From Naegleria gruberi (Eukaryota), in the NCBI GenBank assembly GCA_000004985.1, contig GG738876.1: a stretch of DNA of 64,000 nt; one strand, 5' to 3'. Every line of letters starts with the position of its first letter. The first letter of the stretch is position 1. Of this stretch, positions 1,995 through 40,175 are shown piece after piece. A model generated the notes under the pieces. The model ran no database searches. It was given only the letters and a program-made list of their open reading frames with translations, and was not told the DNA's origin. The position numbers and the translations under genes were made by a program.

Positions 1995-4900
1995 ATGTCA
2001 CTACTCAATGCCAGTGATTTTTCTGATGGAATTCCTTCGCCGATTCATACACCAAAATCTAACAAGGAGATAGTCTTTCCGAATGGTGATTCTGGTATGC
2101 TAACGCCTCTTCAAGATGATTCGAATGTACTTTCAGAAGATTCGAATAATATTTCTTCTTCAAATTCTTCACCTTCTATTGCTATTATCAAGAATGGATC
2201 ACATGAAGAGGATTTAAAAGATGATATCAAGATTTATTCATCATCACCTGTTCCTGCACTTGCCCTGTCAAAATTAATGAAAAATCATCAGGAAGAATCT
2301 ATCCGAAACATTTCCAATAATTATCCAAATAATAATAACAATAACAACACTCTTCAAACAACACCAAACAGTAGCCGAAGTACTCATTCCACTCTCTCAA
2401 ATGGTTCTTCCACCATCATGATGGGAAATACTTCACAAAGAACACTTTCTCCCATTTATCATTCTCTTCACAATGCTTCGTCTACCTATTCGAATGTTAA
2501 TCACAGTCAGCAGCATAATTTAAACTCGAGTCGTTCCAACAATTCTTCGTCAGGTTCAAGATTTCTTTCACCCCAAACTCCAAGAAGATTTAATCATTAT
2601 CCAATGTATCGATCAACTTCGACACCAATCATTTCTCCAAGGTACAATCCACAAATGGTTTCTCCACGTGTCATGATGAATACAAGTTTACATAGTGGAT
2701 TAAACTCTGCTAGATCGAATAGAATGATTTCCATGCAGCAACAACAGTTCAATTCATCAGCAGCAGCAGCAGCATCAGCAGACGAAACTTCATTGAGTGA
2801 AATAGTGCAGATGAGTATTGATGAGGAAGGTACTTATCCTTCATTTGGATTCTTATTGGATACGTTGTGTGAGAGACAGTTTGATAGAGTTGTGAAGGGA
2901 GTTCACACAATTATCGATGATTCTGAGAGGGAAATTGAACAATTGAAAATGTGGATTGAAAAGAATGTGGAAGAAATTGATTATCTGAATCAAGTGAAAG
3001 ATAGTTTAATGGTTCAGTATCAGGAATTAACGAGAGAGATGGATAGAGAAAGACAAACTCTATTGATTAAGAGTAAGGAGAATGAAAATCTCAAATTTGA
3101 GCTGGAAATGAAGAGTATGGAAATTAAGAATGTTGAAAGACAGTTAATGACCAATAAGAATCAAAATTCTGAATTGAATGATAGAATTGAACAAGTGGAA
3201 AAGGAACTAAAGCAAAAAGAAAGACAAATTAATTCCACAAATAATAATTTAATCGAATCAGAGGAGAAATTGAAATCCAAATTGAATGAAATCTCCTCAC
3301 TGAATAACAAGATTGAAATGTACACTTTAGAAACGAGCGAACTCAAACTTGCAAAGGAAAAGTTAGAGAAACAAATTGAAACTCTGAGAAATGAGGTCAA
3401 AACTCTCAAGAGTAATAATGAAGGATACGTGACAATTATCGATCAACAAAACAAGACAATCAATAGAGTTAATGCCAATCTGAAAGAGAAGCAATCAGAG
3501 CTGGAAGAAAAAGATAATGAAAAACAAGATTTATACAATCAAATGGTCATTCTCAAGAGAAATTTCACAGAGAAGGAAAATTCATTGGTTGACTCTCAAA
3601 GTGATTTGGTCAAAATGAAGAGAAAGTTTGAAGATCAGGCACGAGAATTTGAATCATATCGACAAGAGATGAAACAGGAAATGGAAAAGTATCACACCCT
3701 TGTTTCTGATCATCAACAATCAAAGATGAATGAATTAGAAAAGGATCAAGTATTGAAAAAGCATGCAACACTGTTGGAACAATTTGAAGCTTTGCAATTG
3801 AAACATAACAGTTCAGTGTATGATTTACATGAAACCAGACGTGAAAGTCAAGAATATCAAAGAACAAACGAATCCCAAAAGAAGGACATTGAGAAATTGT
3901 TAAAGAGAATTAAGGAACAGGACGATGAAAAATTACAACTCGAAGAGAGGATCAAATGGTTAGAGAGTAACTCTCTCGAGCAAAAGAGCTCCATATCCAA
4001 ACTTCATAAGGAAAATGAAGAGCTCGAGAGTACCGTGTATGGCCTGAAAAAGGATATCAAGATAAGAGAACAAGTATTGGCAGATAAGGATAATGAAATT
4101 TCGCAAAAGGAAAAGGAAATTCAACTCTCCACTGATATTGCCAAAGAAAAAGATTTGGAAATTGAAAAATCTCAAGAAAAGAACCTTTCTCTCCAAAAGC
4201 AAATCGAGCAACTTGATACACAAGTCAAACAATTAACTGGTGATGTTTCAGATCTGAATGAAGAATGTGAAATGTTGAGAAAATATATTTCAGAAGAGAA
4301 GAGTTTCATTCTAGAATCAGATCCAACTCTCAAATTAGTATTACTCATGAAGCAAGAAGGTTTCCCAATTGATGAGTCATACGTTGATAAAATTAGAGGA
4401 AGAAGCATATTCAATTTATTGAGAATGGGAGTTGGTGCTTACAATGTTAGAGTTGGAGATGATGGAAATGGACAAATTGATAGTGAGAGAAGAAAGGAAG
4501 AAACCTTCTTTGCTGAAAAGGCACTCTCTAAATGGTTGCAAAATTTACTTCCTGAAGATTACAATCCTGAACAGAATTTGTATGAAAATATTGCTGATGG
4601 TTTCATGTTGTGTAGAATGATCGATACATTATTTAAGGAAGTTCAGCCTTGCGATCATATTAGAGTAGATAATGCTCTTATTAGAAATCAAAGATCAGAT
4701 TCTGATAACTTGGCAGTTTATTTGGATTATTGTAAAAAGTTAGAATTGAAGAGCTATTTTGAACCTGATATGCTATTCAAAGTTAAAGAAGCCTTTCATG
4801 GTATTCCATCTCTAGCACAAGATTCCATGATAATGGCAAGAGAAAGAGCCTTGATTGTTTCTAATATTGCACAAATATTCGAATTGAATATTAAATGCAA

Positions 4901-5696
4901 CATGTCACCAAGAAAGAAAGAAGAAATACTCGGAAAACTTTTTAATGCAAAACTGGAAAGAGATGCTAATTCACCAATTCTACCAAGATCCAGATCTTCA
5001 TCTGTCAACTCATCTAGAAGTGGTGGTATACGTCCATCAAAAAGAAATAGCATTGCCTTAACTAACTTTTCTATAGCTGTTTCTCCTTCACCACGTATGA
5101 ATGAGGGAATTACACCAAAATCAGCTCGATTTGCAAAAGACATGTTTGAATCTCCAACGATTGGAAACAAAACTCCACCTACTATTCCCTATCTCAAACC
5201 GTTCACATCAAATATGGATTGTCTTTCTCAAGTTTCATCGCCACTCAGTAATGTAACAACTGAGGATGATATTTGGTTGGAACACATGTTAGAAGATATG
5301 AAAATTACACCTTCATCACCTGCAGAATCCAAATTTCAACTCAAATATTATTTGAACAGAGCTGGATCATACTTTGCAAGTGAAGAGCAAAGAGATGAAT
5401 TCATGTCACTTTTGAGAACATTCAAGTTTTTACAAATTGATTTATCAGATTGTCAAAAGTTTGTCAATGAGAAGGAGATTGTTGAAATATTGACAAGATT
5501 GTGTGAAAATAGACATGCATTAAGATTGGATCTGAGTGGATATTGTCTAAAGCCTTACATTAGTCTTGTTGAAAAGTATCTTGCATCTAAAACAGCCATC
5601 AAATATTTGATAATGAAAGACTGTGGATTTAGTGAGGAAGAAAAATCTTCATTGAAACGAGTTGCAAAGACCTTTGACATTTTGACAGATCTGTAA
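1995..5696 (+). CDS. Large coiled-coil protein (1233 aa) with an N-terminal Ser/Asn-rich low-complexity region, a long central coiled coil and a C-terminal calponin-homology (CH)-like domain
   Basis: Uninterrupted ORF with AAAAAAATG start context. Heptad-rich E/K/Q/L segment at roughly aa 300-760. The segment WLQNLLPEDYNPEQNLYENIADGFMLCRMIDTLF...AVYLDYCKKLEL...ALIVSNIAQIFEL matches the CH-domain pattern. Confidence 0.75.
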   Translation: MSLLNASDFSDGIPSPIHTPKSNKEIVFPNGDSGMLTPLQDDSNVLSEDSNNISSSNSSPSIAIIKNGSHEEDLKDDIKIYSSSPVPALALSKLMKNHQEESIRNISNNYPNNNNNNNTLQTTPNSSRSTHSTLSNGSSTIMMGNTSQRTLSPIYHSLHNASSTYSNVNHSQQHNLNSSRSNNSSSGSRFLSPQTPRRFNHYPMYRSTSTPIISPRYNPQMVSPRVMMNTSLHSGLNSARSNRMISMQQQQFNSSAAAAASADETSLSEIVQMSIDEEGTYPSFGFLLDTLCERQFDRVVKGVHTIIDDSEREIEQLKMWIEKNVEEIDYLNQVKDSLMVQYQELTREMDRERQTLLIKSKENENLKFELEMKSMEIKNVERQLMTNKNQNSELNDRIEQVEKELKQKERQINSTNNNLIESEEKLKSKLNEISSLNNKIEMYTLETSELKLAKEKLEKQIETLRNEVKTLKSNNEGYVTIIDQQNKTINRVNANLKEKQSELEEKDNEKQDLYNQMVILKRNFTEKENSLVDSQSDLVKMKRKFEDQAREFESYRQEMKQEMEKYHTLVSDHQQSKMNELEKDQVLKKHATLLEQFEALQLKHNSSVYDLHETRRESQEYQRTNESQKKDIEKLLKRIKEQDDEKLQLEERIKWLESNSLEQKSSISKLHKENEELESTVYGLKKDIKIREQVLADKDNEISQKEKEIQLSTDIAKEKDLEIEKSQEKNLSLQKQIEQLDTQVKQLTGDVSDLNEECEMLRKYISEEKSFILESDPTLKLVLLMKQEGFPIDESYVDKIRGRSIFNLLRMGVGAYNVRVGDDGNGQIDSERRKEETFFAEKALSKWLQNLLPEDYNPEQNLYENIADGFMLCRMIDTLFKEVQPCDHIRVDNALIRNQRSDSDNLAVYLDYCKKLELKSYFEPDMLFKVKEAFHGIPSLAQDSMIMARERALIVSNIAQIFELNIKCNMSPRKKEEILGKLFNAKLERDANSPILPRSRSSSVNSSRSGGIRPSKRNSIALTNFSIAVSPSPRMNEGITPKSARFAKDMFESPTIGNKTPPTIPYLKPFTSNMDCLSQVSSPLSNVTTEDDIWLEHMLEDMKITPSSPAESKFQLKYYLNRAGSYFASEEQRDEFMSLLRTFKFLQIDLSDCQKFVNEKEIVEILTRLCENRHALRLDLSGYCLKPYISLVEKYLASKTAIKYLIMKDCGFSEEEKSSLKRVAKTFDILTDL

Positions 5697-26815: not shown

Positions 26816-27159
26816 TTTTTTCTCAAACTCTTCCGATTGGTTCTTTTGTCGTGTTTGATAACGAAGACTCTAGTTTACAACGTGAATAACATCAAGCCTC
26901 ATCAATAGAAACATTTCATTTTGATGGGTGTATTCGTTCCTTATTGTTTTCCATAAACATCAAGTTTGTTATCCACTTTCTGATGTTGTACAATAAATTC
27001 TCTTTGCATTTCGATCATAACTAGAATGCTATTTTTATATTAAAAAAATCAAAAAACAAATAACACGTTTCAAGTCCACTCAGACTTGAAAAAGAGTTTC
27101 ATTTGGTTCAAACCGATAATAACAATATTTCAGCCCCACAGGGTTTTGTATTATATAAT

Positions 27160-28044
27160 ATGTTCGCAGGATTTAATATCAAGGAGGATTATTTGAGTGA
27201 TGAGGAATCAAGTATGCATGTAAATAATAATCAGCAGACTACTACATCATCATCAATTGAAAGTCTTGTTGCCGATGATGAATTATTGTCATCAGAAGGC
27301 TCTAGAAACGTTGTGGTGATAAATAATAATATTAGTACACAAGAAGATGAAGATTCGTTCATTCTCATTACAAATTATAATACATCAAATCAAGAAGAAA
27401 ATCAAAATGCTAGTACTATGGCAACTAGTAGCATGACCGAATTGCCAACAACACAAGAAATTACCGAGTCGTATCATAACAAAGTTAGTACAGGATTCAT
27501 TGCCGAATCAGTTACTGCACATGAGGAAATTGTCGAGTTTCATGCAACCATGGATCAATCATATCAAAATGAACAGCCGTTTGAGAATATGACACAATCT
27601 TTCATGGCACATGAAACTTCAGTAACATCACAAACTCGTGAGCCTTTGAGTATTTTAGCAAGTGAAGAAATTGATACAGATGATTCATCAGCATCAAGTT
27701 CTCCAGTACTTTTAATCGAGGAAGGAGATCAAGTAATTGAATCTCAACAAGATGTTGTCGAAACTGTTGAGGAAACCAGACAGGTATTCGATGAAACTCT
27801 ATCCAATTCAAATGAAGAAACTATTCTAGGAACTGTTCTCTCTCAAGAAACATCTAATGATTCTGTTGTCCAATCAGAAGACAACAATAACACCACTTGT
27901 ACTACCATTAATGAGGTTGGAATTGCCAATTTTTTAGCCCAAATCAGCCCAGGAAACCCAAGATTTAATTTCTTGGTGCAAGCAGGAGTGATCGCCTGTC
28001 TTTCCGTATTTGTTTTCAGTTTATTCGAGATTGTTTGTAATTAA
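27160..28044 (+). CDS. Hypothetical acidic Ser/Thr/Asn-rich protein with a single C-terminal transmembrane segment (tail-anchored topology)
   Basis: ORF with ATG at 27160 (track start 27103 is a TTG). The C-terminus FLVQAGVIACLSVFVFSLFEIVCN is hydrophobic. No domain recognised. Confidence 0.45.
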   Translation: MFAGFNIKEDYLSDEESSMHVNNNQQTTTSSSIESLVADDELLSSEGSRNVVVINNNISTQEDEDSFILITNYNTSNQEENQNASTMATSSMTELPTTQEITESYHNKVSTGFIAESVTAHEEIVEFHATMDQSYQNEQPFENMTQSFMAHETSVTSQTREPLSILASEEIDTDDSSASSSPVLLIEEGDQVIESQQDVVETVEETRQVFDETLSNSNEETILGTVLSQETSNDSVVQSEDNNNTTCTTINEVGIANFLAQISPGNPRFNFLVQAGVIACLSVFVFSLFEIVCN

Positions 28045-28073: not shown

Positions 28074-30440
28074 CTACCTCTTTATTTTCTTAATGGCAGC
28101 TGATTTGAGAACTACAACATCAGTAGTGACTCCAAATGTTCTACTCGAAAGCTTTGAAAGTTTCTTTCCACCAGAATCGTATCTACAAAATACATCAACC
28201 ACATCCTCGGTAAGGAATTTTGGCCCTTTTCCAATGATTTTCTTAACCAGTATTTGGTCAGATCTCTTTTCAATATTTGGTGACTCTGAACGAGAGGAAT
28301 TGTCTGTCCTGTTACTGTCTGTAGTTGAAGTGCTACTGCCAACGTTTGCATTAAGGCCATCAGTTACGACAACATAGAGAGCTCTGAAAGCTGGAACATT
28401 AACCTCTCTAACAAGTATTATCATTTGGTTTGTATCTTCGTATTCTTTCATGGCCTCAAACACATCTTCTCGTTCCTTCTTATTTACCTCGCCTGCTAAT
28501 GTTAAATGGATAAGAGCATTCTTTATCAGCAGTTTGTTCGTCTTATTTGGTTGTTTCATATTTTTCAAAATCATTCCATTTTCGGCTGTCTTTGCTTCTG
28601 TTGAAATTGGTTGGGGTTTCTCTTTCTTTTTGGTTTCCTCAATTTTCTCTATCTTTTGCTTTCTAACCTCTAAGAATTTCTTATTCCTCATTTCCATTTG
28701 CTTTTTCATATCAGCAGTATTTTCAAATTCATCAGGGAGAATCTCAATAACTTCCTTCTTTTTAGGTTTCGTGGTGGCTATTGTTGCTCTTGGAGACTCT
28801 TTCACTCTGATGGTTTCAACACTCTTCTCTGGGGACTCAGACTTTTTCATATCTCTGACAGTTTTCTTCTCTGGTTTTTGCTCTGTAGGGGTTGGAGTTT
28901 GTTGTTTCTTTGAGGAAATGAAATCTTTCAAAGCTTCTGATTTTGCTCTTTCAATTTCTTGCTCAATTCTTTCCTGAAGTACAATTTTCCCTTCTTCTAT
29001 CATTCTCTGTTGTTCTAAGAGTTGCATTCGTAGTAAATGATTTTGTTTCTTAATTTTATCCATATCATTTTCTGAAATTGACTCGTTAAGGTTGATATTG
29101 GGTTTTGGAATTTCCAAAACTTTGGAAACTCTTAAAGGTTGGTCTGTTGGTGTTTTGAGCTTCTTTGAAGAGTGATCTAATCCAACAACACTTTGAGAAA
29201 CTTGATTCGCCTTGTATTGTTTGAAGAGAGAAATACTCTGAAGAATGTTTTCTTTCATGTCAGAAGACTGATGCTTCATTTCTTCGTTGCGTGTAGTAAC
29301 AACGGTTGGTAAATTGTCTTGATGTTTTTCAACACTTCTATGTACATGGTTGGTTTGAAGTTCATCTTCAGCATCATCTTGAACCTCTGTTTCCAACTCC
29401 TCTAAATCCTTATAACCATCTCCTTCTTCATCATCAGTCCCTTCAATTTCAGTTTTAATTGTGTTGGCAAGTGAGGACTCTTCAGAAATGACCTTTTCAG
29501 AGAACGATTGTTTAAGCATACTCTTGGTCATTGAATTGGAGGGAGGTAACACAGCTTCATCTATTTCCTCATCAATATGCTCTTTCTCTTCAGCAAGCTC
29601 ATCTGTTTCACTGTCATCCTCGCTTCCATACGCAATTGAGTTTTGGTGTTGAGTGGAATACCTCATATCTTCTGCGATACTAGTTCTAATGGAGCTCCTA
29701 GCTATAGATGAACTGCTGGAATTTCTTGCATTTAAATTATTAGTTGACCTGGTTACTTCACGTACTTGAAAGTCTGTTTCTTCTTCCTGATTCTCTTCCT
29801 CTTCTTCCTCATCCTGCACCTCTTCAGACTCCTTGAATTCATCGGTTTCCTCTTCTTGATCCTCATCTTGAGATTCTTCATTGTATTCTTGGTGATCCTC
29901 TTCTGTTTCTTCATTGTATTCTTCCTTATTCTCTTCCTCATCTTCCTGCTTCTCGTCTTGTTGCTCATTTTCATAATCAGAGCACTCCATTTCTTCTTCC
30001 TCTTCTTCCTCATCTACCTCCTGTTGGGTTTGATGTTCTGGCAATGTTGATTCCGAAATACTATATGAACATGTCAAATCAGCTTGATATCTCTGGGGAA
30101 ATGAGTTCATATTTGTATTCTTAATAGCAGATAATGAAACAAGAGAGTCATTAACTAAGCATATCCTTGGATTAACACTTTGACCCTTTGAGGAGGAATT
30201 GTTTTTTGTTTGTTGTTGTAAATTTTCATTAGACTTTTTTGAGTTTTTGTACATTTGGGCATAACTTCCACCACCCTTGGCAGGTGACTTGGAGATTGTA
30301 TCAACCTTAACCACAGTTGTTACAGAGGCTAATAAATCCTCTGGAGCGTGTTCATCTTCCCCTTCGGAAGATAGATCCTTATAGCTATCTTCATCATCTT
30401 CCTCTTCAATAATGTAATTCTGTTTTTCTATTCTACTCAT
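28074..30440 (-). CDS. CAMSAP/Patronin-type CKK-domain protein (788 aa) with an acidic region, coiled coil and a C-terminal CKK domain. No N-terminal CH domain.
   Basis: C-terminal KTNKLLIKNALIHLTLAGEVNKKEREDVFEAMKEYEDTNQMIILVREVNVPAFRALYVVVTDG...GKGPKFLTEDVVDVFCRYDSGGKKLSKLSSRTFGVTTDVVVLK aligns with the CAMSAP1 CKK pattern (SNRLIIRNALSHCCLAGKVNE...FLILFRDSSCQFRALY...GYGPRTVTPAMVEGIYKYNSDRKRFTQIP). A long poly-Glu/Asp tract sits centrally. Confidence 0.75.
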   Translation of the reverse strand: MSRIEKQNYIIEEEDDEDSYKDLSSEGEDEHAPEDLLASVTTVVKVDTISKSPAKGGGSYAQMYKNSKKSNENLQQQTKNNSSSKGQSVNPRICLVNDSLVSLSAIKNTNMNSFPQRYQADLTCSYSISESTLPEHQTQQEVDEEEEEEEMECSDYENEQQDEKQEDEEENKEEYNEETEEDHQEYNEESQDEDQEEETDEFKESEEVQDEEEEEENQEEETDFQVREVTRSTNNLNARNSSSSSIARSSIRTSIAEDMRYSTQHQNSIAYGSEDDSETDELAEEKEHIDEEIDEAVLPPSNSMTKSMLKQSFSEKVISEESSLANTIKTEIEGTDDEEGDGYKDLEELETEVQDDAEDELQTNHVHRSVEKHQDNLPTVVTTRNEEMKHQSSDMKENILQSISLFKQYKANQVSQSVVGLDHSSKKLKTPTDQPLRVSKVLEIPKPNINLNESISENDMDKIKKQNHLLRMQLLEQQRMIEEGKIVLQERIEQEIERAKSEALKDFISSKKQQTPTPTEQKPEKKTVRDMKKSESPEKSVETIRVKESPRATIATTKPKKKEVIEILPDEFENTADMKKQMEMRNKKFLEVRKQKIEKIEETKKKEKPQPISTEAKTAENGMILKNMKQPNKTNKLLIKNALIHLTLAGEVNKKEREDVFEAMKEYEDTNQMIILVREVNVPAFRALYVVVTDGLNANVGSSTSTTDSNRTDNSSRSESPNIEKRSDQILVKKIIGKGPKFLTEDVVDVFCRYDSGGKKLSKLSSRTFGVTTDVVVLKSAAIKKIKR
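29760..30030 (-). repeat. GAA/GAT-rich coding low-complexity tract (poly-Glu/Asp) within the CKK-domain gene
   Basis: Translated as EEEEEEMECSDYENEQQDEKQEDEEENKEEYNEETEEDHQE... It produces the artefactual ORFs 29766..30050(+) and 29753..30013(-). Confidence 0.75.
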
Positions 30441-30666
30441 CTCCTATTTTTACTAAATAAATTGTATGTATGATTTTAATTAAATTTTTTCTCTGAAGAG
30501 AAAGGGATTGATAGATTTTGGAGAGGAATTGAAAAATTGTTTCCTTCTCCTATCGGTTTCGATCAATTTTTTTAAAGTGTAGTTGGTTGGCGCTAACTCG
30601 TTTTCGCGCCAAATCTTTTTTAAATTAAAAAACCAAAAAATAGGTTTTTAGAAAAAGTTAAAAAAA

Positions 30667-33600
30667 ATGTCCAACAACGAAAATGATGCTATTGAAATTG
30701 ATTTAATGGAAGACGATGATGAAGAAGACGAAGAAGAAGAAGAGGAAATAAAAATTGCCAATAATGAGGAGATAATCCTTTCCGATGATGAAGAGGAAGA
30801 CGATGATGACGATATGGAGGATGAAGACGCAAAGTTTATAGTAGAGGAAACAGCAGAAGGCATACCGGAACAAATCCAAGATCCGATGATGGTTGTTGCA
30901 GATTTATTGAATGAAGAACAAACAGACCTTCAAAAGGATAATGAAGAAACAGAAGTGGAAACTGAAACTAATCAACCTCAAACCGAAACTAAGTCATTGA
31001 GTCTTGCTGCTCAAGTAGCTGTTTATTTGAAAGGAACGCAAAATATTGTAGTTGAAAAAGAAGAGTCAATTGCAAAAAGTATATATTGCACTGCTCTGTC
31101 TTATCATTCTAAACGTGATTATGATAGAGCCATCGATTATTATTTCAAAGTTTTGAAACGTGAATTCGTGGATCAAGCTCTTGTAGATCCGTTACAAAAA
31201 GAATTTTTTGAAATCAAACAAAACACATTCATTTATTTGAAATATTTGTCTCTTAAAAACCTTGGAGCTATTTTCCTTGCCAAGAAGAATTATTCAGATG
31301 CATCAATTTCCCTTGCAAAAGCTCTCACTATTGAAGATAAGGATACGTCCTTATGGTATGATTATGGTGTGGCTTGTTTTAAAAATAATGATCATGCAGC
31401 TGCCAAATTAGCACTGGAAAAAACTATAATACTCAATCCTAATCACTACCCAGCCTTTAACTTGCTTTTAGAGTTGTCATACATTGTTGGTGATATTGAG
31501 GGATGTGATTCTGTTTCCAAAGATATTTTGAAATTAAGCAGTGACCACAAGGTAGCCAATTTTGTTCAAAAAGAAATTCACCCAAGCCCATATCATCTGC
31601 TTTTCTTTCAAAACACAGCTCTAAGCAATTCTCTCTATAAGGGATGGTGTAATTATTGTATACCCGAAGATGAGAAAGATGAAACACACAAATGCCTTGT
31701 TAAAATATCAGAACTTGATTGGAAATTTATTTGTACAAAATTACTGAAAATTTATGCTTACATGAAGTCTGATTGCGAGATATTGATTATGTATGAGGAG
31801 AAGGATATCATAGCAGAGACGAATGAAACAACCGATGAAGTAGTAGAGGAAACAGTTGTTGATGAGCCAAAAGCACAAGAGTCACTGAGAAGATTTAAAC
31901 GAAAGAGATATGATCTAGGAGTTCCTCTGTAAGTATTTAAGAATAATTATTGTACTAACATTTTCAAGTTCAAAAAAGCCAAAAACTTTAGCAGGAACTC
32001 TTGCATACGATTTTCTAAAGCTGACAAGAATGGATCCTGTCTCTTTGGATAGTACCCAACATTCAAATTCTGACAATAGGGCCGAAATAGTAAGTCAGGA
32101 TATTTCTTTAGAACCATTGAAGAAGTGGCTCAAGAAAGTCAGGGGGCTGAAACTCAAATTGTTAGACACCATTAAACACGTTCTAGAGTTAGTTTGTGGA
32201 GAATTATGGTCATATAAATGGCCAGCAGATCTATCCTCAATGTTGTCCAACATGGCATTCACCCTTACTAGGCACAATATTTCCTATTCCTTTAAAACCA
32301 ATCTTTGCATTGCTGAACTCTTATACGATAAATATGAAGAAACTGGTGGCCTGGGATATTTCGAAATGGCAAGAAAGATTTTCAACAAGTTTGGTACATT
32401 GCTATTAACCTCCGACAGAATGCTAGAGAAAATTGACAGGACAACATCATGCAGAGCTTTGTGGCTTAGAGGACTTGTGGAGAGATCTTCAAAGTCAGCT
32501 ATCACCAATCAATGGTTCGAGCAATCTAAGCAAATGATAGACAAAGATATAATACTCCCTAATTGGTAAGTTTCTGTCTAAATATTAATTAACCTCAGCA
32601 GTACAAAGAACAGTATTATTACAATACAAAATATTGAAACTAAGATTTTGGAGCTTAATTTTAACATCATTCTGGAAAATATTAAAAAGCAGAGAGAAAA
32701 TGGTAATTGTGCTCTTGCCTTGAAATCAGTGAGCGAACCACTTACTGTTTCATTACCTGAAAAATCCCATGCTCTACTTGCTCAAATCCTTTGCAGTGCA
32801 CTTGGCAATATAGATATTAGTGAGCTAGAAACACTTGACAAGGTTCAAGTAATAGCAATTTTAGATTTTTTTATTACTTATTTTACTAAAAATGTTTCAG
32901 ATATGTTGGACTATCCAGATATTCAAAGTACAATAGCAAAAATCGATCAATATACTCAAAGAGTTATTTTCCCCGATGAAGATATCAAGCAAACCAAGCC
33001 TATACATACTTTAGCTTACAAAATACTCAATCTCCTAAACTCTTTAGGTCTTGGAAAGCGCTCCATCAGTGTTTACACGAAAGAGATTTGCAGATTCTTG
33101 AAGATATTTTACCATTTAGCTCCGTTTACAAATGAAAAGGAAAGAAAAGAATTTTTGACACATGTTCGTAAAAAGGTACTCTACGAATTTGATCCTCTCA
33201 GAAGAATTAGTAAGTTTATATTTACAATATTAGATACGAATAATTTTATTAAGGCAACTTTAATATTTTCTTACTAAAAGAATTACACAGATTGTATGGA
33301 AAATCTGCAACAGACAAATCATTAACAAGCGAAAAAAATTCAATCCTTGCTGAAATTTCAACAGTCATCTACATGACCTTTGACATGAAAATTAATCTAA
33401 CCGATTCTGGTCCTGACACAAAATTCAAAGATTGTGAGAAACCATCAAAAGTATTAGTTGATGAGGATGCAAACGCAATCCTCTTTAGAATTTTGAAACC
33501 AACATTTGATAGCAAGCTTGAAGGAAAGTCTTCCATGAGACAGATAATATTACCATTTATCAAAAGAATTTCCAATGCATTCGATACTATTCCTACACCA

Positions 33601-39005: not shown

Positions 39006-40175
39006 TTAGAAGTTTGGTCTAATCTTCTTGATAGCTCTGGCACAACCTTGTTCATCATATTCCTTCTTTGTCAACCAGAAATTAGCACCACTATCCTTCA
39101 TGATTTCAGCAAGGACAGCACCACCCAAGAAGACCATGTGCTTTCTACGTGGAGGATCTTCAATCTTCAACTTGAACTTGCTCAAACCTTCTTCGTTACC
39201 TCTGAGAATATTCTTCAAATAGAGATCAGTAATTTCCTTTTCCAAACGAGATGGGAGACCAGGATACATAGTAGTACCACCAGACAAGACAATGTGTGAG
39301 TAAAAGTCAGTACGCAAGTCAATATCAGCCTTGTTAATAGTTTCGAACACTTGCAAGTGCATACCACCTTCTTCTTTATCACTGAGAGCAGGATTGAAAA
39401 GACATTCTGGAGCTTGGAAACGTTCAGCACCAATCTTAATAACTCTACCATCAGGCAAAGTATATTTCTTCATAAGAACAGTAGTTTCCAAAGCAAGCTT
39501 ATTTTCCAAAGCCATATCATAACCAACATAACAATACTTTTCCTTGATTTGACGAACTGTTTCAAAGTCAGCAGTTCTGTTGAATGAATAACCACGCATC
39601 AACAAGAGTTTGATTAAGTGGTCGGTAACATCTCTACCAGCCAAATTCAATCTCTTGACTAAATGTTCCAAACTGAAACCATCATAGACAGGAACTGTGT
39701 GAGTGACACCATCACCAGAGTCAACAACGACACCAGTGACGAGACCTTGAGCGTACAAAGTCAAGACAGCTTGAATAGAAATGTACAATCCTTGGAATCC
39801 GTAATGTTCAAACATGGTTTCAACAACCTTCTTTGTCTTTTCTTTTGGATTCATAGGTGGTTCAGTCAAGAGGATTTGACTGTCCTTTGGGTCAACCTTT
39901 AAACGATCCCAAGTATAATCCCACAAGTGGATCATGTCTTCAAAGTTAGTAACAATACCATTGGTCAATGGATAGGAGACTTCAAGAGCAGCTCTGAGCT
40001 TTGCACATTCATCACCGACCATAATATCCTTCAATTCAACATCTCCAATAGATTCTTCGGCACGCAAGAGTGGACGACCAACCATAGCTGGGAAAGTAGC
40101 CTTTGGGAAGTTATCACCAGCAAAACCACACTTAACGAAACCAGTACCGTTATCGCAAACTACAGTTTTAACCAT
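39006..40175 (-). CDS. ARP2: Actin-related protein 2 (Arp2), Arp2/3 complex subunit (389 aa, single exon)
   Basis: Near full-length identity pattern with Arp2: [86 protein letters not shown]. Confidence 0.95.

What the first reader, a model, noticed from the sequence alone, without database searches (positions are those of the whole stretch)
28074..30440. CAMSAP/Patronin-type CKK domain protein without a CH domain
The C-terminal 120 residues align convincingly with the microtubule-minus-end-binding CKK domain. Upstream there is only an acidic poly-Glu region and a coiled coil, with no N-terminal calponin-homology domain. A separate gene in this window (1995..5696) has a coiled coil plus a C-terminal CH domain. 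Minus-end regulators are poorly characterised in Amoebozoa.
Basis: partly seen in the sequence, partly recalled or inferred. Interest (0 to 1): 0.55.

Follow-up and report, generated by a model that had tools for sequence, protein, structure and literature searches.

The report
Known Naegleria CKK microtubule-binding protein

Summary
The 788-aa ORF at 28074..30440 (-) is real. It carries a significant C-terminal CKK domain (Pfam PF08683, 73 bits, E 2.5e-20) and no CH domain. It is already known. The exact sequence is Naegleria gruberi XP_002675779.1 / D2VJG4 (NAEGRDRAFT_50049). Residues 620-788 are 100% identical to PDB chains 6QUY_W and 6QVE_W, the "NgCKK" of Atherton et al. 2019 (PMC6868217). 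That study showed that the domain binds between protofilaments at the intradimer site, coats the whole lattice, and shows no minus-end preference on mammalian microtubules. It also described the 34-residue disordered loop 4 insert. A 2024 preprint lists the gene as "CKK domain only" and groups it as "Core", meaning upregulated in both mitosis and flagellate differentiation. The organism belongs to Heterolobosea (Discoba), not Amoebozoa. A missing CH exon is very unlikely: there is an in-frame stop two codons upstream, only 226 bp to a conserved divergent TPR gene, the N. fowleri and N. lovaniensis orthologs also have CKK only, and the N-terminal 393 residues are predicted disordered. The CH-domain gene at 1995..5696 has a generic, internal CH domain and appears unrelated. 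About half of the long CKK proteins I surveyed lack a detectable CH domain. Two weak leads remain: a possible CC1-like coiled coil, and a possible CH domain in the Willaertia ortholog.

The parts
28074..30440 (-). Complete single-exon CDS including the stop codon. It encodes 788 aa = N. gruberi XP_002675779.1 / EFC43035.1 / D2VJG4, NAEGRDRAFT_50049 ('NgCAMSAP').
   Evidence: ORF list; exact-sequence look-up.
28077..28607 (-). aa 612-788: the NgCKK construct used for TIRF and cryo-EM (N-terminal extension 612-632, core 633-784, short C-terminal tail).
   Evidence: aa 620-788 are 100% identical to 6quy_W/6qve_W. Construct boundaries are given in PMC6868217 Methods.
28089..28544 (-). CKK core, aa 633-784. 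This is the microtubule-binding wedge that sits between two tubulin dimers of neighbouring protofilaments.
   Evidence: Pfam PF08683 at 73.2 bits; PMC6868217. The family-invariant Asn (N641) and Pro (P740) are present.
28248..28358 (-). Loop 4 insert, about aa 695-731, Ser/Thr-rich (24% S, 11% T) and disordered. It faces away from the microtubule. It is conserved in N. lovaniensis and N. fowleri and is 23 residues shorter in Willaertia.
   Evidence: [quoted passage not shown]
28626..28718 (-). Pre-CKK basic helix, aa 575-605 (EILPDEFEN...RNKKF...), inside a Lys-rich linker (aa 511-632, net charge +11).
   Evidence: AF2 helix 575-605; conserved in Naegleria spp. and Willaertia; charge.
28905..29072 (-). 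Coiled-coil helix, aa 457-512 (KIKKQNHLLRMQLLEQQRMIEEGKIVLQERIEQEIERAKSEALKDFIS). This is the most conserved part outside the CKK domain. It may be CC1-like, but that is unproven.
   Evidence: AF2 helix with pLDDT ~90; invariant columns in the three-sequence alignment; module-profile hits in other CKK proteins; hhalign to CC1 gives Prob 35% versus <2% for reversed controls; no Pfam CC1 hit.
29199..29261 (-). Conserved short helix, aa 394-414 (ILQSISLFKQYK...). It marks the start of the module shared with Willaertia.
   Evidence: AF2; BLASTP alignment with Willaertia starts here.
29241..30050 (-). Acidic, disordered region, aa 131-400 (net charge about -76). It includes an N. gruberi-specific expansion encoded by imperfect 33-nt repeats (29853..29945) and a second GYKDL motif at aa 342-346.
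   Evidence: Composition and motif scan; tandem repeats; gaps in the orthologs; AF2 disorder.
30087..30407 (-). Conserved N-terminal short motifs: aa 12-45 (EEE..YKDLSS..PEDLLASVTTV) and aa 98-118 (DSLVSL.AI..TN..PQRY). No predicted fold. They may be partner-binding motifs (inference).
   Evidence: Invariant columns in alignment A1; AF2 disorder.
30441..30666 (.). 226-bp divergent promoter shared with the TPR gene NAEGRDRAFT_50050 (30667..31932, +). It contains an in-frame TAG two codons upstream of the ATG and an E2F-like palindrome at 30601..30613.
   Evidence: Sequence; upstream translation; motif statistics; the head-to-head TPR neighbour is conserved in N. lovaniensis and N. fowleri.

Best explanation
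This is the single CAMSAP/Patronin-family gene of Naegleria gruberi (NAEGRDRAFT_50049, 'NgCAMSAP'). Shown by published experiment on this exact sequence: the C-terminal CKK domain (core aa 633-784), helped by its flanking extensions, wedges into the groove between two protofilaments at the intradimer interface. It contacts two alpha- and two beta-tubulins every 8 nm, but not at the seam. Unlike human CAMSAP1 CKK, it sits shallower, does not skew protofilaments, and decorates the whole lattice with no minus-end preference on mammalian microtubules. Its 34-residue loop 4 insert is disordered and points away from the microtubule. Inferred here: the conserved helix at aa 457-512 dimerises the protein, giving two CKK heads and so higher avidity or cross-linking. 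The Lys-rich linker and pre-CKK helix add electrostatic affinity for the lattice. The long acidic disordered N-terminus, with its short conserved motifs, recruits partners or modulates binding. Interphase amoebae have no microtubules and the gene is upregulated in both mitosis and flagellate differentiation. The protein therefore most likely stabilises or organises non-centrosomal microtubules in both the acentrosomal spindle and the flagellate cytoskeleton. There is no CH domain, and none is needed for this mechanism.
For: Exact identity to XP_002675779.1/D2VJG4. aa 620-788 are 100% identical to PDB 6quy_W/6qve_W. Pfam CKK at 73.2 bits. Binding mode, lack of minus-end preference, truncation and chimera data and the loop 4 insert come from PMC6868217, and the construct numbering there (612-788) matches this ORF. 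[quoted passage not shown] 'NgCAMSAP ... Core', with the definition of 'core'. No interphase microtubules. AF2 shows aa 1-393 disordered, helices at 394-414, 457-512 and 575-605, then the CKK fold. The module from aa 399 to the C-terminus is conserved in Willaertia (37% identity, E 5e-66) and in three Naegleria species. Charge distribution.
Against: All binding data were obtained on mammalian tubulin, and the authors themselves note that NgCKK might still recognise minus ends on native Naegleria microtubules. Nothing in the held literature localises or perturbs the full-length protein. Dimerisation through the helix at aa 457-512, and every proposed role for the acidic N-terminus, is inference from sequence and a shallow-alignment AF2 model (mean pLDDT 44.6).
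Confidence: 0.93

Rival explanations
1. In its native setting the protein is a true minus-end-targeting CAMSAP. On Naegleria's own divergent tubulins, or as a full-length dimer, it would cap and stabilise free minus ends. The lattice binding seen in vitro would then be an artefact of using heterologous mammalian tubulin and an isolated domain.
For: The authors state that this is possible (Discussion of PMC6868217). A chimera carrying the HsCKK termini on the NgCKK core gained slight minus-end preference. The family-invariant Asn and Pro of the CKK core are retained. Naegleria tubulins, especially the mitotic ones, are highly divergent.
Against: NgCKK showed no minus-end preference at a range of concentrations. 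It induced no protofilament skew, which is the structural signature that correlates with minus-end recognition.
Confidence: 0.25
2. The gene model is incomplete, and a CH-domain exon lies upstream and is spliced onto this ORF.
For: Some other protist CKK proteins carry CH domains: one Trichomonas paralog is listed as 'CH + CKK', and 18 of 41 long representatives hit CAMSAP_CH. The Willaertia ortholog is 1214 aa and has a sub-threshold CH_CAMSAP2_N hit.
Against: There is an in-frame TAG two codons upstream of the ATG. Only 226 bp separate it from the divergent TPR gene, and that head-to-head layout is conserved in N. lovaniensis and N. fowleri. The next large ORFs upstream are all on the + strand, and the first large minus-strand ORFs upstream are Arp2 and an LRR protein. 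The N. fowleri and N. lovaniensis orthologs start with the same conserved N-terminal motifs and have CKK only. tblastn of the Willaertia N-terminus against the window finds nothing (best E 1.1).
Confidence: 0.02
3. A 'split CAMSAP': the CH-domain coiled-coil protein encoded at 1995..5696 supplies the CH function in trans to the CKK protein.
For: Both genes lie in the same 64-kb window, and both products have coiled coils.
Against: The CH domain is generic PF00307 with no CAMSAP_CH or CH_CAMSAP2_N hit at E<=0.1, and it lies after the coiled coil rather than at the N-terminus. It shows no significant similarity to the Willaertia CKK protein (best E 0.056). It is ~22 kb away on the opposite strand, with many genes in between. 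CH domains are widespread, so proximity at this scale carries no information.
Confidence: 0.02

Closest known systems
NgCKK, the Naegleria gruberi CKK domain protein (PDB 6QUY and 6QVE; Atherton et al. 2019, Nat Commun 10:5236)
   Same: It is the same molecule. aa 620-788 are 100% identical, and the paper's residue numbering (612-788) fits this 788-aa ORF.
   Different: Nothing differs in the domain. The N-terminal 611 residues of the full-length protein were not studied there.
Human CAMSAP1/2/3 and Drosophila Patronin
   Same: A C-terminal CKK domain with the same fold and the same intradimer, inter-protofilament binding site. A coiled coil lies upstream of the CKK. Sequence similarity in the CKK is weak but significant (E 6.6e-10 to the CAMSAP1 chain).
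   Different: No CH domain and no Pfam CC1 hit. The loop 4 insert is 34 aa and the C-terminus is shorter. The microtubule footprint is shifted, with no protofilament skew and no minus-end preference on mammalian microtubules. The protein is much shorter and has an acidic disordered N-terminus.
CKK-only proteins of other protists (Giardia, Tetrahymena, Phytophthora, Salpingoeca, Trichomonas paralogs), as tabulated by the 2024 preprint
   Same: The same 'CKK domain only' architecture. In my survey only 18 of 41 long CKK representatives hit CAMSAP_CH.
   Different: The N-terminal regions are not alignable. The SISLFK helix + coiled coil + basic helix module upstream of the CKK is seen only in Naegleria, Willaertia and one unnamed relative, P0007.
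Willaertia magna KAL9642593.1 (1214 aa), the nearest non-Naegleria relative
   Same: Its C-terminal 378 residues align with aa 399-788 here (37% identity, E 5e-66). The CKK domain itself shows 59% identity.
   Different: It has ~830 extra N-terminal residues that are predicted helical, with a sub-threshold CAMSAP2-like CH hit (25 bits against a cutoff of 27). Its loop 4 is shorter.

Membership tests
CAMSAP/Patronin family (defined by the CKK domain) | CKK domain (Pfam PF08683) scoring above the curated threshold | tested here: met
   73.2 bits against a cutoff of 27, E 2.5e-20, aa 629-776. A phmmer search of 1.84 billion representatives recovers 177 family members at E<=0.001.
CAMSAP/Patronin family (defined by the CKK domain) | CKK located at the extreme C-terminus | tested here: met
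   The domain ends 4-12 residues before the stop codon. The placement is the same in nearly all relatives.
CAMSAP/Patronin family (defined by the CKK domain) | CKK fold and binding at the intradimer, inter-protofilament site of microtubules | not testable with these tools
   Published cryo-EM at 3.8 A or better on this exact sequence (6QUY/6QVE; 100% identity; PMC6868217). My own AF2 model of this region reached only pLDDT 50-65.
Canonical metazoan CAMSAP architecture (CH - CC1 - coiled coils - CKK) | N-terminal CAMSAP-type CH domain (PF11971 / PF25532) | tested here: not met
   No CH family hits at E<=10 on the whole protein or on aa 1-398. AF2 predicts aa 1-393 as disordered. The published table says 'CKK domain only'.
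Canonical metazoan CAMSAP architecture (CH - CC1 - coiled coils - CKK) | CC1 region (PF17095) | tested here: inconclusive
   No Pfam hit. A CC1-only HMM scores in the decoy range. However, hhalign of the Heterolobosea coiled coil against a CC1 alignment gives Prob 35% and P 3.9e-4, versus 0.6-1.6% for reversed controls. jackhmmer reaches Willaertia at round 2 with E 2e-5.
Functional class: microtubule minus-end-targeting proteins | Preferential binding to microtubule minus ends | not testable with these tools
   Published TIRF assays show that NgCKK binds the whole lattice with no minus-end preference on mammalian microtubules. Native Naegleria microtubules have not been tested.

The most novel reading that the evidence does not exclude
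The CKK-only state may be a recent loss rather than an ancestral condition. On this reading, the common ancestor of Naegleria and Willaertia had a fuller CAMSAP, with an N-terminal CAMSAP-type CH domain and a CC1-like coiled coil. Naegleria then replaced the CH-containing N-terminus with an acidic disordered region, while keeping the CC1-like coil, the basic helix and the CKK domain. It also gained a conserved Ser/Thr-rich loop 4 that could be a phospho-regulatory switch. Cell-cycle expression could be driven by the E2F-like palindrome in the divergent promoter.
Probability: 0.2. Interest if true: 0.3.

Novelty: already known. Interest (0 to 1): 0.08.

Why it matters
The finding matters little as a discovery. 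The gene is annotated, its CKK domain has been solved on microtubules and characterised biochemically, and its CKK-only architecture and expression class are published. The real open question is what the full-length protein does in a cell that has no interphase microtubules and builds an acentrosomal spindle from divergent tubulins. A related question is whether it recognises minus ends on native Naegleria microtubules. Both need experiments, not sequence analysis. The conserved pre-CKK module and N-terminal motifs mapped here could guide construct design.

Tried and rejected
1. Hidden CH exon: rejected. There is an in-frame stop, a 226-bp divergent promoter conserved in two sister species, no minus-strand ORF with a CH domain upstream, and no tblastn match to the Willaertia N-terminus.

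2. Cryptic folded domain in the N-terminal 400 residues: rejected as far as a three-sequence AF2 model can show, since the region is predicted disordered.

3. Link to the CH gene at 1995..5696: rejected. The CH is generic and internal, with no CAMSAP-type CH hit, and a PDB search of its C-terminal part was uninformative.

4. Willaertia CH domain: not confirmed. The Pfam hit is below threshold. The single-sequence AF2 model is unusable at pLDDT 41. The word-based homology search found nothing, not even the query's own protein. A local CH profile scored it no better than shuffled decoys.

5. CC1 homology of the coiled coil: weak and mixed evidence, so it is left as a lead.

6. The search for homologous proteins with the full protein and with the CKK domain alone returned only Naegleria sequences, because of word-index limits. 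The full HMMER scan was needed to see the family.

7. The 2017 NSMB paper (PMC6134180) is not held, so its content is cited only through the 2019 paper.

8. Rfam, tRNA and tandem-repeat scans of 26-32.5 kb found nothing relevant beyond the codon-level repeats of the acidic tract.
Full report
**Observation.** The window holds an uninterrupted 788-codon ORF at 28074..30440 on the minus strand, starting with ATG. Pfam gives a single hit: CAMSAP_CKK (PF08683), 73.2 bits against a curated cutoff of 27, E 2.5e-20. It matches residues 629-776 to profile positions 6-117 of 119, so the domain contains a ~36-residue insertion. No CH family is reported even at E<=10, on the whole protein or on residues 1-398 alone. 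Residues 131-330 are 28% Glu with net charge -59. A long, confident helix spans 457-512.

**Identity.** A search of PDB sequences shows that residues 620-788 are 100% identical to chains 6quy_W and 6qve_W, named 'CKK domain protein' (E 1.7e-102). The exact 788-residue sequence is on record as Naegleria gruberi EFC43035.1 / XP_002675779.1 / UniProt D2VJG4, locus NAEGRDRAFT_50049, on a 396,977-bp scaffold. Five other ORFs of the window are also exact N. gruberi proteins: the TPR protein NAEGRDRAFT_50050, Arp2, a JmjC/RIOX-type oxygenase, a myotubularin-related protein and a small GTPase.

**What is already known.**
- Atherton et al. 2019 (PMC6868217) used this domain ('NgCKK', constructs 612-788, core 633-784) as the comparator for human CAMSAP1 CKK.
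- Cryo-EM at 3.8 A or better shows a typical CKK fold. It is wedged at the intradimer, inter-protofilament site every 8 nm and is absent at the seam.
- Compared with the human domain, the footprint is shifted and shallower, contacts with alpha-tubulin are smaller, and there is no protofilament skew.
- Loop 4 is 34 residues longer than in the human domain, is invisible in the map, and points away from the microtubule.
- Both termini contribute to affinity.
- The authors note that NgCKK might still recognise minus ends on native Naegleria microtubules.
- They also say their earlier work identified the N. gruberi and P. infestans CKKs as lacking a minus-end preference that was proposed for the ancestral eukaryotic CKK.
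[quoted passage not shown] One Trichomonas paralog is listed as 'CH + CKK'.
- It also records that interphase amoebae contain no microtubules.
- I found nothing in the held literature on the localisation or function of the full-length protein.

**Is a CH exon missing?**
- A TAG lies in frame two codons upstream of the ATG.
- Only 226 bp separate the ATG from the ATG of a divergently transcribed TPR gene.
- The same head-to-head TPR neighbour is present in N. lovaniensis and N. fowleri.
- The large ORFs between 30.6 and 38.8 kb are all on the + strand. The first large minus-strand ORFs upstream encode Arp2 and an LRR protein.
- The N. lovaniensis (740 aa) and N. fowleri (747 aa) orthologs begin with the same conserved N-terminal motifs and hit only CKK.
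- An AlphaFold model of the full protein was built on a shallow three-sequence alignment (mean pLDDT 44.6). It shows residues 1-393 without structure, then helices at 394-414, 457-512 (pLDDT ~90) and 575-605, then the CKK fold with a disordered 693-730 loop.
- I conclude that the CH domain is truly absent.

**Anatomy beyond the CKK.** Alignment of the three Naegleria orthologs and of Willaertia magna KAL9642593.1 shows a conserved module from residue ~399 to the C-terminus. In order, it contains a short helix (SISLFKQYK), the coiled coil (KIKKQNHLLRMQLLEQQRMIEE...ALKDFIS), a Lys-rich linker, a basic helix (EILPDEFEN...RNKKF), and the CKK domain. Willaertia residues 837-1214 align to residues 399-788 here (37% identity, E 5e-66). 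Within Naegleria there are also short N-terminal motifs, at aa 12-45 and 98-118 and a repeated GYKDL at aa 19-23 and 342-346. The Ser/Thr-rich loop 4 insert is conserved in sequence within Naegleria, whereas Willaertia's loop is 23 residues shorter. The acidic tract is expanded in N. gruberi through imperfect 33-nt repeats. The family-invariant Asn and Pro of the CKK core are present, as N641 and P740. By my numbering inference from the paper's construct boundaries, N641 corresponds to human N1492.

**How unusual is CKK without CH?** A full HMMER scan of 1.84 billion representatives with residues 612-788 found 177 proteins at E<=0.001, usually with the match at their C-terminus. Of 41 representatives of at least 600 residues, all hit CKK, 18 hit CAMSAP_CH, 16 hit CH_CAMSAP2_N and 15 hit CC1. 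The CKK-only architecture is therefore common, which agrees with the published table.

**Two weak leads.**
- *A possible CH domain in Willaertia.* The Willaertia protein has ~830 extra N-terminal residues with a sub-threshold CH_CAMSAP2_N hit: 22-25 bits against a cutoff of 27, E 2e-5 on the isolated region. If real, Naegleria lost the CH domain after the split from Willaertia. I could not corroborate it. The single-sequence model was unusable, the word-based search found no relatives, and a local CH profile scored it no better than shuffled decoys.
- *A possible CC1 remnant.* The coiled coil at aa 453-515 may be a diverged CC1. A jackhmmer run seeded from a bona fide CC1 reaches Willaertia at round 2 (E 2e-5) and then Naegleria. 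hhalign gives Prob 35% and P 3.9e-4, against 0.6-1.6% for reversed-column controls. However, a CC1-only HMM does not separate Naegleria from decoys, and Pfam reports nothing.
- Both are recorded as inconclusive.

**The other CH gene.** ORF 1995..5696 (+) encodes 1233 residues. It has a generic CH domain (PF00307, 35.7 bits) at aa 841-932, after a long coiled coil and before ~300 further residues. It has no CAMSAP-type CH hit and no meaningful similarity to the Willaertia CKK protein. It lies ~22 kb away on the other strand. I see no reason to connect it with the CKK gene.

**Mechanism.** The microtubule-binding mode of the CKK domain, and its lattice rather than minus-end behaviour on mammalian microtubules, are shown experimentally. 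The rest is inferred: dimerisation by the 457-512 helix, electrostatic help from the basic linker, partner binding or modulation by the acidic N-terminus, and a role in organising non-centrosomal microtubules of both the spindle and the flagellate array. The main rival is that the native protein does target minus ends on Naegleria tubulin. That remains open (confidence about 0.25).

**Verdict.** Interest is low.

Noticed in passing
window 30587..30613 (divergent promoter between the CKK gene and the TPR gene): A palindromic TTTGGCGCGAAAA lies at 30601..30613. From my own knowledge this matches the E2F-site consensus TTTSGCGC. It gives the only TTTSGCGCS matches in the 64-kb window (0.09 expected), and a second TTGGCGC core lies at 30587..30593. 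The orthologous N. fowleri promoter has an exact TTTCGCGC (L002 3813-3820). N. lovaniensis has GGCGGGAA and CGCGCGC elements instead. In all three species these sit just upstream of a conserved TACAYTTTAAAAAA block. This would fit the mitotic upregulation reported for the gene.
   Followed up: partly
L002 4001..6296 (N. fowleri) and L001 4001..6266 (N. lovaniensis): In N. fowleri the ortholog is called as two ORFs (511 aa and 243 aa) that change frame right after the coiled coil. In N. lovaniensis the gene is 43 nt longer than its CDS. Both point to a short intron, which the continuous N. gruberi ORF lacks.
   Followed up: partly
P0005 = Willaertia magna KAL9642593.1 (not in the window): This is the nearest non-Naegleria relative. 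It is 1214 aa and has ~830 extra N-terminal residues that are predicted helical, with a sub-threshold CAMSAP2-like CH hit (25 bits against a cutoff of 27). It hints at loss of the CH domain in Naegleria, but I could not corroborate it.
   Followed up: partly
window 1995..5696 (+): A 1233-aa ORF with an S/N-rich N-terminus, a ~450-residue coiled coil, a generic CH domain at aa 841-932, and a ~300-residue tail that hits no Pfam family at E<=0.1. The exact ORF translation is not in the protein collection, so the annotated gene model probably differs.
   Followed up: partly
window 27103..28044 (+); L001 6347..10266 and L002 6366..9536: The convergent downstream neighbour of the CKK gene is a SPEF2-like flagellar gene in N. 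lovaniensis and N. fowleri. In N. gruberi it is instead a 313-aa ORF with no family hit, ending 29 bp from the CKK stop codon. No SPEF2-like sequence is found anywhere in the window. This indicates a synteny break downstream, while the upstream TPR neighbour is conserved.
   Followed up: partly
window 29853..29945 (-): Imperfect 33-nt tandem repeats encode an N. gruberi-specific expansion of the acidic tract (EEYNEE.. units). The expansion is absent from the N. lovaniensis and N. fowleri orthologs.
   Followed up: partly
window 39006..40175 (-): This is the Arp2 gene (XP_002675780.1). Its locus tag is three away from the CKK gene's in both N. fowleri and N. lovaniensis.
   Followed up: no
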